In this document: piece after piece, positions 58,295 through 60,196 of the stretch | How positions within the stretch are numbered: the stretch's first letter is position 1 | Layout of the letters: the number at the start of each line of letters is the position of its first letter | Assembly (NCBI GenBank): GCA_046964515.1 | Contig: JBKUYM010000001.1 | Location: forward strand, 402,842-466,841 | Direction of reading: 5' to 3' | Length of the DNA: 64,000 bases | Source: Clostridia bacterium | Lineage (GTDB): Bacteria > Bacillota > Clostridia > TANB77 > CAG-508 | Position numbers and translations under genes: made by a program | The notes under the pieces: model-generated | What the model saw: the letters and a program-made list of their open reading frames with translations, nothing else | Told to the model about the DNA's origin: nothing | The model's database searches: none

Positions 58295-60196
58295 ATGAAA
58301 AAACAGATAGAAAAGCAAAAAGGTATTACCTTAATTGCATTAGTAATAACCATTATTGTACTAATTATCTTAGCAGGTATTAGTATTAGCTTATTATTTG
58401 GAGAAAATGGTATTATTACAAAAGCAAAAGAAACAAAAGAATTACAAAAAATAGCAGAACTAACCGAAAAACTAGAGTTAGAAAAAGGACCAGTGGCATT
58501 AGACCATAAGGGAGAAGTACTAATTACAGATTATCTAGAATATATAAAAGAACAAGCAATCATAGAGAATAAAGATATAGAGACTTTAAATGAGCTACAA
58601 AGTTATATTACTTTAGAGGGAGAGTATGTATTTTTAGTAGAAGAAAAAGATAATCGAGATGTTAAAATCACTTATATGGGGAAACCAGGAGAATTACCAC
58701 CTCGTATTACAGGGTTAGAAATGAGTAGTACGACGAATAGTATTACTGTAAAAGTAGAAGGATTACGATTGGAGAATCCTCATTATACCTATTATATAAA
58801 ATCAGAAAAAGAAGAAGAATATGGAGAAAAAGTAGGAAACAATACAACAGGAAGCTATACTTTTGAAGGATTAGAACAAAATCATATATATTATCTAAAA
58901 GTAGAAGTAGAGACGGCATATGGAAAATCAAATAAAGAAGGGTCAAAAACGACAGGAACGATAGAAGCTTTAACAAAAGAAAATACAACATTTACCTCTA
59001 CACCAGAAGGGTGGACAAATGGAATTGTAAAAACAAAGATAGAAACGAGTGTAAATGGGTATACGATACAATATAGTAAAGACTTAGTAAATTGGGAGAA
59101 ATATAGTAAAGAAGTAGAATCTAATAAAAATGAAATGTTATATGCAAGACTAACAGATGGAAATAATATAGGAGAGTATACAAGTACACAGATAAAGAAT
59201 ATAGATACAGACAAACCAGAAGAAGCCATCATGGAATTAAGTGGAGCAGGAACGGTAACTAGTAATCCAAGTGTAAAGATAAAAGTAACGCATACAGACA
59301 AACAAAGTGGAGTAGAAGTCGTAAAGAGTAAATGGGTATATAATACCAATAGTAATGCTATAGGAGAAAGTGAGGCAAGTTATACAGGAGGATACTTTAA
59401 TAGTAATGGACAAGAAATAACCTTATCAATGAGTGGAGAAGGAACGTATTACTTACATGTATTAACAATAGATAAAGCAGGAAATAAGAGAGAAACGATA
59501 AGTAAAGCAGTAAGTATGGTAGCTAATAAGCATAGTCATACAGGAAGTAGCAGTAGTGGAGGAGGTTGTTATACAACACCTGTATATCATAAGCATAATG
59601 GAAGTAGCACAACAGGAGGAGGCTGTTATACTGCACCTGTATATCATCAACATACAGGAAGTGTTAGTACAGGAGGAGGCTGTTATACAAAAGTGATATA
59701 TCATACGCACACAGGAAATAGTAGTACTAATGGAGGTTGTTATACGCTACCAGTATATCATGCACATAGTAGCAGTTGTTATGCTACTTGTGGAGGACAG
59801 ATATATATAGAATGGAAAGGCGGAACAGATGGTTGGGTACGTTGGAATTTAAAATGTTCGAAATGTGGAGCTGTAGGTTATCGTGCTTGGCATCCTGATT
59901 ATAATAGTCCTTGTCCAAGTGACGGAGAAATACTAGGAAATGGTAGATGTACAGGAAGTATTATATCTTGTGGAAAAACAGCAGGTTCTACAATTGATAG
60001 TTATGGTTTGAATTGCGGAAAAACAGCAGGTTCTACGATAGAAGGATATCAAATAGATTGTGGTAAAATAGCAGGAACCACCATTGAAAGTTATGATTTG
60101 AATTGTGGAAAGACCCCTGGTACGAGTATAGATTCTTACGATTTAGGATGCTATTTAAACGATGGACAAATTGTATCTTATACCATTTGTTATTAA
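58295..60196 (+). CDS. Pilin-like N-terminus family protein P7 with an Ig/FN3-like region and Cys/His-rich tandem repeats
   Basis: N-terminus MKKQIEKQKG|ITLIALVITIIVLIILAGISISLLFGENGIITKAKETKE. Five copies of GGGCYT.PVYH.H.GS (19 aa). Four copies of CGKTAGSTI.SY.L. (15 aa). Confidence 0.7.
   Translation: MKKQIEKQKGITLIALVITIIVLIILAGISISLLFGENGIITKAKETKELQKIAELTEKLELEKGPVALDHKGEVLITDYLEYIKEQAIIENKDIETLNELQSYITLEGEYVFLVEEKDNRDVKITYMGKPGELPPRITGLEMSSTTNSITVKVEGLRLENPHYTYYIKSEKEEEYGEKVGNNTTGSYTFEGLEQNHIYYLKVEVETAYGKSNKEGSKTTGTIEALTKENTTFTSTPEGWTNGIVKTKIETSVNGYTIQYSKDLVNWEKYSKEVESNKNEMLYARLTDGNNIGEYTSTQIKNIDTDKPEEAIMELSGAGTVTSNPSVKIKVTHTDKQSGVEVVKSKWVYNTNSNAIGESEASYTGGYFNSNGQEITLSMSGEGTYYLHVLTIDKAGNKRETISKAVSMVANKHSHTGSSSSGGGCYTTPVYHKHNGSSTTGGGCYTAPVYHQHTGSVSTGGGCYTKVIYHTHTGNSSTNGGCYTLPVYHAHSSSCYATCGGQIYIEWKGGTDGWVRWNLKCSKCGAVGYRAWHPDYNSPCPSDGEILGNGRCTGSIISCGKTAGSTIDSYGLNCGKTAGSTIEGYQIDCGKIAGTTIESYDLNCGKTPGTSIDSYDLGCYLNDGQIVSYTICY
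59558..59790 (+). repeat. Coding tandem repeat, about 57-nt period, 4-5 copies, within P7
   Basis: ggaggaggttgttatacaacacctgtatatcataagcataatggaagtagcacaaca repeated with variation. Confidence 0.6.
59966..60150 (+). repeat. Coding tandem repeat, 45-nt period, 4 copies, within P7
   Basis: tgtggaaaaacagcaggttctacaattgatagttatggtttgaat repeated with variation. Confidence 0.6.

What the first reader, a model, noticed from the sequence alone, without database searches (positions are those of the whole stretch)
59558..60150. P7 carries two arrays of Cys/His-rich tandem repeats
Five 19-aa repeats GGGCYT(T/A)PVYH(K/Q/T)H(N/T)GSS.T (59558-59790) are followed by a Cys-rich spacer (CYATCGG...CSKCG...CPSDG) and four 15-aa repeats CGKTAGSTI(D/E)SY.L(N/D) (59966-60150). 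Regularly spaced Cys and His residues point to metal binding, or to disulfide-stabilised surface repeats. DNA-level tandem repeats are also a substrate for slipped-strand length variation.
Basis: seen in the sequence. Interest (0 to 1): 0.55.

Follow-up and report, generated by a model that had tools for sequence, protein, structure and literature searches.

The report
Coupled His/Cys ladder with swappable tip
The two repeat arrays are the two legs of one uncatalogued surface-protein module of gut Clostridia, probably a metal-stapled hairpin rod that holds out a Cys-rich tip which differs completely between otherwise near-identical proteins.

Summary
The repeats are real. The gene is 58295-60196 (+), 633 aa. 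All 16 Cys and 11 of its 16 His lie in the last 229 aa.

The two arrays are not independent. They flank a Cys-rich cap and form one module. About 1000 cluster representatives carry this module, and no Pfam, NCBIfam, PHROG or PDB entry matches it.

Across 185 modules the number of HxH..C units (A) tracks the number of CGKT..Y.L units (B). Pearson r is 0.81, 85% of modules agree within one unit, and counts range from 1 to 14. Unit similarity and unit length covary only when the B order is reversed.

I read this as a hairpin. The A array goes up, the cap turns the chain, and the B array comes back. Each rung offers His, His, Cys and Cys, a classic tetrahedral zinc ligand set.

Relatives with 96-99% identical stalks carry unrelated caps and matched rung counts (5/5, 4/4). 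That pattern is typical of a receptor-binding tip.

The N-terminus resembles a type IV prepilin leader but lacks Glu5 and misses the family thresholds.

Metal binding, monomeric state and the ligand are all inferred, not shown.

The parts
58204..58232 (+). Promoter-like site TTGAAA-17-TATAAT (11 of 12 matches), about 60 nt upstream of the ATG. The gene looks monocistronic.
   Evidence: This is a consensus match only, and the number of sites in the region is not above the shuffled expectation.
58295..60196 (+). The whole gene: 633 aa plus the stop codon.
   Evidence: A 100% identical partial protein, P0001, is named 'MAG: Clostridia bacterium, hypothetical protein'.
58295..58399 (+). Prepilin-like (class III-like) signal. 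It has a hydrophilic leader MKKQIEKQKG (aa 1-10) ending in Gly, then the hydrophobic stretch ITLIALVITIIVLIILAGISISLLF. Position +5 is Ala, not Glu.
   Evidence: The sequence is. Pfam N_methyl scores E=0.078, 13 bits against a 21.2-bit cut-off. NCBIfam pilin models score E=0.007-0.1, far below their cut-offs. AlphaFold2 predicts a helix over residues 8-35.
58295..58699 (+). Small pilin-like module, aa 1-135. It has a long broken N-terminal helix (8-35, 40-62), two short helices, and a four-stranded antiparallel sheet (95-129).
   Evidence: AlphaFold2 model me37922513d35, mean pLDDT 85.9. Foldseek against the PDB found no pilin and nothing significant.
58712..58951 (+). Fibronectin type III-like domain, aa 140-219.
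   Evidence: Pfam fn3 scores E=0.0016, 19 bits, below the 25-bit cut-off. Several close homologues carry precomputed PF00041.
58952..59506 (+). Beta-rich stalk domains, aa 220-404. They are conserved in a very large family of leader + stalk + variable-head proteins.
   Evidence: At least 4887 hits to aa 1-404. There are weak OmpL47-type and YdjY-like hits at aa 321-403.
59531..59779 (+). A array, the ascending leg. It has five HxH-(9,9,9,9,3 residues)-C units at aa 413-495, with a 19-aa period. The family consensus is GGGCYTxPVYHxH(T/S)G(S/N/D).
   Evidence: AlphaFold2 gives short strands at each 'PVY' and pLDDT 86-97 over units 2-4.
59777..59968 (+). Cap, aa 495-558. It has a CYATC knuckle (C495, C499), a beta-hairpin QIYIEWKG/VRWNLKC, a CSKC knuckle (C521, C524), a third strand, and then a low-confidence loop with C540 and C552. 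This part is predicted to be zinc-ribbon-like and is hypervariable.
   Evidence: Secondary structure and pLDDT are. Local Foldseek matches to NrdR, TFIIS, MqsA and C2H2 zinc ribbons have probability 0.8-0.97 but E>0.2. There is no nucleotide similarity to the otherwise 97%-identical gene in L009 over 59783-59988. No close relative was found among 300 family members.
59969..60193 (+). B array, the descending leg. It has four CGKTxGxxIxxYxLx units plus the terminal degenerate CYLNDGQIVSYTICY, aa 559-633, with a 15-aa period. The family consensus is YxLxCGKTxxT(I/V)(E/D)xYxL, with a usual period of 14.
   Evidence: AlphaFold2 gives a strand at each 'TIxSY' and pLDDT 89-96 over units 2-4.

Best explanation
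The last 229 aa form one autonomous extracellular module built as a hairpin ladder.

Proposed anatomy.
- The A array (HxH..C units) runs outward.
- A Cys-rich cap reverses the chain.
- The B array (CGKT..Y.L units) runs back antiparallel. A unit i therefore lies beside B unit n+1-i, and the C-terminus ends near the base.
- Each rung brings together two His and one Cys from A and one Cys from B.

Proposed chemistry. I propose that each rung binds one metal ion, most likely Zn(II) in a His2Cys2 site. In this protein a further Cys4 zinc ribbon closes the cap. That would give about six structural metal sites that staple a thin rod.

Proposed function. The rod's length is set by the number of rungs: 5 here, 1 to 14 in the family. 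The rod presents the cap at the point of the protein farthest from the cell. The cap is the ligand-binding element and is exchanged as a cassette between lineages. In this gene the module is carried on a stalk (fn3 and beta-domains) anchored by a prepilin-like N-terminus, so the whole protein would be a surface or pilus-tip adhesin of a gut Clostridia bacterium.

Shown here.
- The repeats exist.
- The module is a family of its own.
- Unit counts in the two arrays are coupled 1:1.
- Covariation favours the reversed B order.
- The cap is hypervariable on conserved stalks.
- No catalogued family matches.

Inferred.
- Metal binding and which metal.
- The monomeric state.
- The adhesive function and the ligand.
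- Processing by a prepilin peptidase.
For: 1. One module, many contexts. The same A-cap-B order occurs in 60 word-indexed hits. A profile search of 1.84 billion representatives gives 1002 proteins at E<=1e-3, 618 at <=1e-10 and 163 at <=1e-30. The N-terminal partners differ: pilin-like leaders, Sec signals, collagen, coiled coils, the ALK/LTK Gly-rich domain, and a 5947-aa protein with several modules.

2. Coupled stoichiometry. In 185 modules of 173 proteins the A and B unit counts correlate: Pearson 0.81, Spearman 0.70. 85% of modules agree within one unit. Permutation gives a mean of 44% and a maximum of 57% in 5000 trials. Counts range from 1 to 14. In 14 close relatives the HxH count equals the B-Cys count in 12 by script, and in all 14 by eye.

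3. Antiparallel register. The similarity matrix among A units matches that among B units best when the B order is reversed. Mean r is 0.455 reversed, 0.200 parallel and 0.00 random. The test used 29 modules; Wilcoxon p=0.018 for reversed against parallel. Unit-length deviations covary when reversed (r=0.55, p=5e-8) but not when parallel (r=-0.14).

4. Ligand set. HxH, the following Cys and the B Cys are the conserved positions. All 16 Cys of the protein lie in the module, and the stalk has none.

5. Fold. The AlphaFold2 monomer model has pLDDT 86-97 in the central rungs, with one short strand per unit. The cap has the knuckle-hairpin-knuckle-strand order of a zinc ribbon and gives local Foldseek matches to zinc ribbons.

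6. Variable tip. 

7. Extracellular setting. 106 of 173 members have an N-terminal hydrophobic signal or anchor.

8. Host range. The producers are anaerobic Clostridia: Lachnospiraceae, Butyrivibrio, Kineothrix and Mobilitalea. From general knowledge, extracytoplasmic disulfide formation is not expected to be robust in such organisms.
Against: - No metal was measured, and the tools returned no model coordinates. The key geometric test, whether His Nε and Cys Sγ of a rung come within about 4 Å, could not be done.
- The model's pTM is only 0.50, and the cap loop has pLDDT below 50.
- The pairing evidence is indirect. Family members are related, so they are not independent samples. Atypical cap-proximal units in both arrays could contribute to the antiparallel signals.
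- Matched up and down lengths would also arise in an oligomeric needle.
- Cys-ligated zinc sites are uncommon in secreted bacterial proteins.
- Only 11% of caps have both zinc-ribbon knuckles, so the ribbon is a feature of this cap class, not of the family.
- The pilin assignment fails its thresholds. No pilus machinery was seen among about 20 window ORFs scanned.
Confidence: 0.5

Rival explanations
1. Oligomeric (trimeric) fibre needle of the phage T4 gp37 type. Three chains intertwine, each going up and coming back. The HxH pairs of three chains coordinate Fe(II) or Zn(II) octahedrally on the fibre axis. The Cys residues play a secondary role. The cap forms a trimeric receptor-binding head.
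For: - HxH repeats on the axis of a needle in which the chain goes up and returns are the hallmark of the T4 long-tail-fibre tip, which holds seven iron ions bound by HxH (described in PMC11705849).
- This geometry would equally explain matched A and B counts and a distal variable head.
- Some members have trimer-prone stalks: collagen in P0048, and long coiled coils in P0093 and P0131.
- Two members sit beside genes with PHROG hits, including weak tail-protein hits.
Against: - HxH occurs only in the ascending leg. The B units have none.
- The four-ligand His2Cys2 arithmetic per rung would then be a coincidence.
- No sequence or fold similarity to any solved fibre was found.
- tblastn found no hit in 50,697 phage genomes, and no match was confirmed in IMG/VR.
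- Many members place the module directly after a signal peptide, or several times in one chain. That suits an autonomous monomeric domain.
- The monomer AlphaFold2 model is confident in the rungs.
Confidence: 0.15
2. Disulfide-stapled ladder. Each A Cys forms a disulfide with its B partner, and the cap is disulfide-knotted. The HxH pairs are surface-exposed. They might serve as pH sensors or weak metal binders, or act in binding, but they are not structural metal sites.
For: - There are 16 Cys, an even number, all in an exported part of the protein that is otherwise Cys-free.
- A Cys and B Cys are paired 1:1.
Against: - HxH is as strictly conserved as the Cys residues, and sits at a fixed distance (9 residues) from the A Cys. 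This points to a shared site.
- The hosts are strict anaerobes of gut and rumen. From general knowledge, these typically lack robust extracytoplasmic disulfide formation.
- The cap knuckles (CxxxC and CxxC) are a metal-site pattern rather than a disulfide pattern.
Confidence: 0.15
3. Metal capture rather than metal-stabilised structure. The His/Cys arrays would be a high-capacity surface ligand for Zn, Ni, Fe or Cu, used for acquisition, buffering or detoxification. The metal would be the cargo.
For: - The module has a high density of soft and borderline ligands.
- The number of sites is variable, from 1 to 14.
- His-rich surface zinc-binding proteins exist in other Gram-positives (for example the paper listed, PMC12445094, not read in detail).
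Against: - A cargo-binding array would not need a strictly matched second array, a fixed register or a hypervariable cap.
- The gene has housekeeping neighbours and no transporter or metal-regulated context.
Confidence: 0.08
4. The main significance is a contingency locus. Slipped-strand mispairing in the 57-nt and 45-nt arrays would give rapid in-frame length variation of a surface antigen.
For: - Both periods are multiples of three.
- Copy number differs among relatives.
- Exact runs of about 20 nt are shared between neighbouring B units.
Against: - Units are only 70-77% identical.
- A change in one array alone would break the 1:1 pairing, and such imbalance is rare.
- Close relatives differ by replacement of the whole cap and B leg, not by unit gain or loss.
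- The only other copy of this exact gene (P0001) is identical.
Confidence: 0.05

Closest known systems
Receptor-binding tip (needle domain) of the phage T4 long tail fibre protein gp37, and other HxH metal-binding fibres or spikes
   Same: - Repeated HxH motifs at regular intervals.
- A thin elongated rod in which the chain runs out and returns.
- A distal head that carries binding specificity and varies between relatives.
- Metal ions as internal staples (PMC11705849; the structural details are from my knowledge of Bartual et al. 2010).
   Different: - No sequence or fold similarity was detected.
- HxH occurs in one leg only.
- An invariant Cys lies in each leg, giving four ligands per rung per chain. 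gp37 instead has six His from three chains.
- The family is predominantly in bacterial chromosomal surface proteins, not in known phages.
- The oligomeric state is unknown.
Cysteine-rich zinc-finger domain of DnaJ/Hsp40 (four CxxCxGxG repeats)
   Same: It works alike in principle. Repeated ligand-bearing motifs are arranged on a hairpin, so that motifs from the outgoing and returning legs combine to make each zinc site. Repeats 1+4 and 2+3 pair in this way (from established knowledge).
   Different: - The motifs differ: there is no CxxCxGxG.
- DnaJ sites are all-Cys.
- DnaJ has a fixed two sites, and is cytoplasmic.
- Here there are two different repeat types, His2Cys2 arithmetic, 1 to 14 rungs, and an extracellular setting.
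Modular type IV pilins (S. sanguinis PilB with a vWA module, PilC with a lectin module; PMC8179133)
   Same: - A short hydrophilic leader ends in Gly and is followed by about 21 hydrophobic residues.
- A small helix-plus-sheet module comes next.
- A bulky functional module is grafted at the C-terminal side.
- The role is proposed to be tip-exposed and adhesive.
   Different: - Glu5 is absent.
- The N_methyl signature is below threshold.
- Foldseek did not retrieve pilins.
- No pilus machinery was seen in the window.
- The grafted module is an uncatalogued fold.
- Five such leader proteins are scattered among housekeeping genes in 64 kb.
Zinc ribbon (Cys4, two knuckles on a three-stranded sheet; for example NrdR N-terminus, TFIIS)
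   Same: It gives local structural matches to zinc ribbons.
   Different: - The matches are not significant (E>0.2).
- The ribbon is embedded as the turn of a larger module.
- Only 11% of family caps have both knuckles.

Membership tests
Type IV pilin / class III signal peptide (Pfam N_methyl PF07963, IPR012902) | Hydrophilic leader ending in Gly or Ala, followed by about 21 mainly hydrophobic residues | tested here: met
   The leader is MKKQIEKQKG, followed by ITLIALVITIIVLIILAGISISLLF. The definition is as given in PMC8179133.
Type IV pilin / class III signal peptide (Pfam N_methyl PF07963, IPR012902) | Glu at position +5 of the mature protein | tested here: not met
   Position +5 is Ala (I-T-L-I-A). 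The same holds in the four other leader proteins of the window.
Type IV pilin / class III signal peptide (Pfam N_methyl PF07963, IPR012902) | Profile match above the curated threshold | tested here: not met
   N_methyl scores 13 bits against a 21.2-bit cut-off, E=0.078. NCBIfam pilin and pseudopilin models score 12.6-16.5 bits against cut-offs of 89-158.
Type IV pilin / class III signal peptide (Pfam N_methyl PF07963, IPR012902) | Pilin fold: an N-terminal helix of about 50 residues packed on an antiparallel sheet | tested here: inconclusive
   AlphaFold2 gives helices 8-35 and 40-62 and a four-stranded sheet at 95-129, with pLDDT 86. Foldseek against the PDB returned no pilin and nothing below E=0.27.
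Type IV pilin / class III signal peptide (Pfam N_methyl PF07963, IPR012902) | Prepilin peptidase and assembly machinery present, and the protein processed and polymerised | not testable with these tools
   None were found among about 20 window ORFs scanned. The rest of the genome is not available.
Fibronectin type III domain (PF00041) | Profile match above the gathering score | tested here: inconclusive
   The score is 19 bits against a 25-bit cut-off, E=0.0016, over aa 140-219. Close homologues carry PF00041.
Zinc ribbon | Two Cys knuckles separated by a beta-hairpin, with a third strand after the second knuckle | tested here: met
   C495-x3-C499, strands 98-105 and 111-117, C521-x2-C524, and strand 123-128 (module numbering).
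Zinc ribbon | Significant structural similarity to solved or predicted zinc ribbons | tested here: inconclusive
   BFVD local matches to NrdR-like, TFIIS, MqsA and C2H2 have probability 0.8-0.97 and rmsd 1.4-3.8 Å over 33-55 residues, but E=0.25-2.
Zinc ribbon | Bound zinc | not testable with these tools
   This needs metal analysis of the protein.
T4 gp37-type HxH metal needle | Repeated HxH motifs along an out-and-back elongated domain | tested here: met
   Five HxH at 19-aa spacing.
T4 gp37-type HxH metal needle | Sequence or fold homology to gp37 or other solved fibres | tested here: not met
   phmmer and a profile against PDB sequences gave no hit, even at E<=10. Foldseek against the PDB gave nothing.
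T4 gp37-type HxH metal needle | Homotrimer with six-His octahedral sites on the axis | not testable with these tools
   No multimer prediction and no coordinates were available.
   No such family was found in Pfam, NCBIfam or PHROGs at E<=1, nor in PDB sequences.
DnaJ cysteine-rich domain (PF00684) | CxxCxGxG repeats | tested here: not met
   The motif is absent from the sequence, and there is no Pfam hit.

The most novel reading that the evidence does not exclude
The His2Cys2 set of each rung may hold a redox-active centre rather than structural zinc. Candidates are Fe, Cu, or even a Rieske-type 2Fe-2S cluster, which uses exactly two His plus two Cys. The rod would then be a linear chain of 5 (up to 14) redox or metal centres, displayed on a pilin-like extracellular stalk of a strict anaerobe. 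That would be a protein wire, or a metal-handling device of a kind not described before.

A less extreme and more likely novel reading has a probability of about 0.35. It is a new fold class, a length-tunable zinc ladder, that gut Clostridia use as a universal scaffold for cassette-exchangeable binding tips.
Probability: 0.05. Interest if true: 0.9.

Novelty: new variant of a known kind. Interest (0 to 1): 0.62.

Why it matters
- It would define a sizeable, uncatalogued extracellular domain family. There are about 1000 representatives at 50% identity, confined so far to Clostridia of gut and rumen, including cultured Butyrivibrio.
- The building rule is unusual. Two different repeat types, far apart in sequence, must be added or removed in pairs.
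- It offers a clean system for studying how repeat proteins keep two arrays in step.
- It gives a candidate metal-stapled rod of programmable length.
- It gives a candidate hypervariable binding tip. That is a handle on strain-level adhesion specificity in poorly understood commensals.
- The conserved-stalk and swapped-cap pattern means the caps are probably under diversifying pressure from hosts, phages or competitors.

Tried and rejected
- Catalogue searches found nothing for the module. This covers Pfam, NCBIfam, PHROGs and PDB sequences, both on the whole protein and with a family profile.
- Structural searches of the module model gave nothing significant: Foldseek against the PDB and against BFVD.
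- Foldseek with the N-terminal model did not retrieve pilins.
- A full-text search for the peptide motifs returned only nucleotide primers. A search for HxH, zinc and Lachnospiraceae returned nothing relevant.
- Phage origin was tested. There was no tblastn hit in 50,697 phage genomes, and no match was confirmed in IMG/VR. Only two relatives lie beside genes with PHROG hits.
- The first two unit-counting heuristics were wrong and were discarded. They picked spurious B matches in the cap, or split modules at a stray HxH in the cap. Inspecting the outliers led to the rule used.
A short alignment of A units (A3) worked.
- The contig of P0183 could not be found.
- No positional orthologue was found. 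No fetched locus shares the ftsH or HD-domain flanks, and the 94-97% identical genes lie next to rpoA-rplQ. I therefore cannot say whether caps vary at one locus or between paralogues.
- No silent A or B cassettes occur elsewhere in the window.
- No pilus machinery was seen among the ORFs scanned.
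Full report
**Observation**

The ORF at 58295-60196 (+) encodes a 633-aa protein. Tandem Repeats Finder finds a 57-nt array at 59537-59761 (3.9 copies, 74% matches). It also finds a 45-nt array at 59968-60111 (3.2 copies). Each array also has a two-unit super-period.

Read in the phase that is conserved across the family, there are five HxH-(9,9,9,9,3)-C units at aa 413-495.

The second interval holds four CGKTxGxxIxxYxLx units. A degenerate fifth unit follows and ends the protein.

All 16 Cys and 11 of the 16 His lie in the last 229 aa. The 404-aa N-terminal part has no Cys. DNA units are 70-77% identical to each other.

**What the module is**

I searched the C-terminal 229 aa against 5.8 billion proteins. 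This gave 60 hits, none with a Pfam domain over this part. All have the same order: HxH..C units, a Cys-rich middle, then CGKT..Y.L units.

A profile of 48 of them was run against 1.84 billion cluster representatives. It finds 1002 proteins at E<=1e-3 and 163 at E<=1e-30.

The module occurs behind many different partners:
- pilin-like leaders
- ordinary signal peptides
- collagen repeats
- long coiled coils
- the ALK/LTK glycine-rich domain
- several copies in one 5947-aa protein

No Pfam, NCBIfam, PHROG or PDB sequence matches it, even with the profile at E<=10.

A pattern scan of one genome per GTDB species found 66 loci, all in Clostridia. They include Lachnospiraceae, Kineothrix, Mobilitalea, and Butyrivibrio with cultured strains.

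Known phage genomes and IMG/VR gave nothing. Two relatives do lie next to genes with PHROG hits.

**The two arrays are coupled**

This is the central new result. Two faulty counting rules were discarded first. With the corrected rule, the number of A units and the number of B units in 185 modules correlate:
- Pearson r is 0.81 and Spearman is 0.70.
- 85% of modules agree within one unit.
- Permutation of partners gives 44% on average and never more than 57% in 5000 trials.
- Counts range from 1 to 14.

Among 14 close relatives of this protein, the number of HxH equals the number of B Cys in 12 by script. The two exceptions are regex artefacts. By eye all 14 match, with counts from 1 to 5.

Two further tests address the register.
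- The pattern of similarity among A units resembles that among B units much more when the B order is reversed. Mean r is 0.455 reversed, 0.200 in the same order, and 0.00 for random order. The test used 29 modules; p=0.018 for reversed against same order.
- Deviations in unit length covary under the reversed order (r=0.55, p=5e-8) but not under the same order (r=-0.14).

Both tests are indirect, and the proteins are related to one another. Atypical cap-proximal units may also contribute. Together with the stoichiometry, they point to a hairpin: A units go out, the cap turns the chain, and B units come back. A(i) then lies next to B(n+1-i).

**Ligand arithmetic and the model**

The conserved positions are the two His, the Cys nine residues later (three in the last unit), and the B Cys. 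Flanking Gly and Tyr are also conserved. Each rung thus offers His, His, Cys and Cys, the classic tetrahedral zinc set.

The AlphaFold2 model of the module has these properties:
- mean pLDDT 74 and pTM 0.50
- pLDDT 86-97 in the central rungs of both legs
- one short strand per unit
- pLDDT below 50 in the distal loop of the cap

In this protein the cap begins with CYATC, followed by a beta-hairpin, CSKC and a third strand. That is the order of a Cys4 zinc ribbon. Foldseek against predicted viral structures returns only local, non-significant matches to zinc ribbons. Foldseek against the PDB returns nothing.

I could not obtain coordinates, so the decisive distance check was not possible. Across the family only 11% of caps have both knuckles and 47% have a CxxC. 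All caps are Cys-rich, with a median of 5 Cys.

**The cap is the variable element**

A search with the N-terminal 404 aa gives at least 4887 relatives. This is a very large family built from leader, stalk and variable head. The heads include Laminin_G_3, Big_2, Flg_new and others.

Three relatives share 96-99% identity with the query's stalk. Their rung counts are 4/4, 5/5 and 4/4.

The same cap types reappear on stalks that are only 56-71% identical. P0184 resembles P0186 and P0196; P0183 resembles P0195. The cap of P0192 resembles that of P0005, for which no stalk identity was computed.

At the DNA level, the window compares with the P0184 gene as follows:
- 97.4% identical from 4 nt before the start codon to the end of the A array (58291-59782)
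- 80.6% identical over the B array (59989-60208)
- unrelated flanks

Those relatives lie downstream of rpoA-rplQ rather than ftsH. No positional orthologue was found. I therefore cannot tell allelic replacement from paralogue divergence.

A conserved shaft with a cassette-like distal tip is the signature of receptor-binding proteins.

**The rest of the protein and its setting**

The N-terminus is MKKQIEKQKG, then ITLIALVITIIVLIILAGISI. This fits the descriptive definition of a class III signal peptide (PMC8179133). However, it has Ala rather than Glu at +5 and scores below the Pfam and NCBIfam thresholds.

AlphaFold2 predicts a long broken N-terminal helix and a four-stranded sheet in aa 1-135, with pLDDT 86. 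That order is pilin-like, but Foldseek retrieves no pilin. A weak fn3 match follows at aa 140-219.

The neighbours are housekeeping genes: DnaB, TilS, FtsH, an HD-domain phosphohydrolase and an SDR. No pilus machinery was seen among about 20 window ORFs scanned. A promoter-like site lies at 58204-58232.

**Mechanism, committed**

I think the module is a monomeric hairpin rod stapled by one metal per rung, most likely Zn in His2Cys2 sites. In this protein a zinc-ribbon cap closes it. It serves to present a hypervariable binding tip at the far end of a surface or pilus-tip protein.

My confidence by component:
- The hairpin coupling is well supported, about 0.8.
- Metal binding is a reasoned inference, about 0.6.
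- The binding role of the cap is inferred from its variation pattern, about 0.5.
- The ligand is unknown.

The main rivals are these:
- a trimeric needle of the T4 gp37 kind, with HxH-Fe on the axis (0.15)
- a disulfide ladder (0.15)
- metal capture as the function (0.08)
- a slipped-strand contingency locus (0.05)

**Comparison and novelty**

In working principle the closest things are:
- the gp37 needle (HxH staples, an out-and-back chain, a variable distal head)
- the DnaJ zinc-finger hairpin (sites made from outgoing and returning repeats)
- modular pilins (a functional module grafted on a pilin-like anchor)

Membership in any of these is not supported. There is no homology to fibres or to DnaJ, and the pilin signature fails on Glu5 and on thresholds.

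I rate it a new variant of a known kind. It is an uncatalogued fold family with an unusual paired-repeat construction rule.

Noticed in passing
window 26107-27831 (+), 34086-34820 (-), 35491-37257 (+), 52309-53130 (+), 58295-60196 (+): Five genes in 64 kb start with nearly the same prepilin-like leader, (K/S)G|ITL(I/V)(A/S)LVITII.L.ILAG(I/V)SI..L.G(E/D)NG.ITKAK. All lack Glu5 and are scattered among housekeeping genes. The four genes other than the focal one have no Pfam hit at E<=1e-3; the focal gene was scanned at E<=1 and has only sub-threshold hits. The genes at 26107 and 35491 are paralogues with a shared C-terminal domain of unknown family. No prepilin peptidase or pilus ATPase was seen among the ORFs scanned.
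   Followed up: partly
window 34086-34820 (-); P0009, P0028, P0048, P0093: The small leader protein carries the motif AQAITNKGISTAYTDSAQVMAQNIQNI. The same motif ('LASALLTKGV..DATF..I..AIL.I') sits just upstream of the His/Cys module in several unrelated family members. This suggests a shared stalk element.
   Followed up: no
L009 1070-2971 and L010 2268-4145 (genes for P0184 and P0121): Genes whose first ~1.4-1.5 kb are 94-97% identical to the window gene lie downstream of rpoA-rplQ, not ftsH. Homology starts 4 nt before the ATG; for L009 it ends 12 nt after the stop codon. The whole gene therefore appears to have been copied or moved as a unit. L010 has a further leader-type gene immediately downstream (4357-5070).
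   Followed up: partly
P0021, P0024, P0027, P0038, P0057: In several relatives the ALK/LTK glycine-rich domain (PF12810; precomputed hits on record for P0021, P0024, P0027 and P0057), or a similar Gly-rich region in P0038, directly precedes the His/Cys module. This is an unusual bacterial pairing.
   Followed up: no
P0082 (5947 aa), P0061, P0062, P0066: One giant surface protein carries several complete A-cap-B modules in tandem. Other proteins have 10-14 rungs right after a signal peptide and end in a C-terminal membrane anchor with a conserved cytoplasmic tail ('LYCYD...YR.LG').
   Followed up: no
L007 627-9360 (P0013 at 8824-9360); L005 7234-10711 (P0014 at 10001-10711): Two short family members sit at the end of blocks with PHROG hits: phrog_27355 at E=1.6e-59, plus weak tail-protein hits. 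These may be prophage or large-phage receptor-binding proteins. However, the module is absent from 50,697 catalogued phage genomes.
   Followed up: partly
window 59537-59768 and 59968-60132: Both arrays show a two-unit super-period at the DNA level: 114 nt in A and 90 nt in B. This would fit expansion by duplication of two rungs in both legs.
   Followed up: no
window 32826-34019 (+): This ORF is an SPFH/Band-7 protein with a C-terminal double zinc ribbon. It is unrelated to the finding.
   Followed up: no
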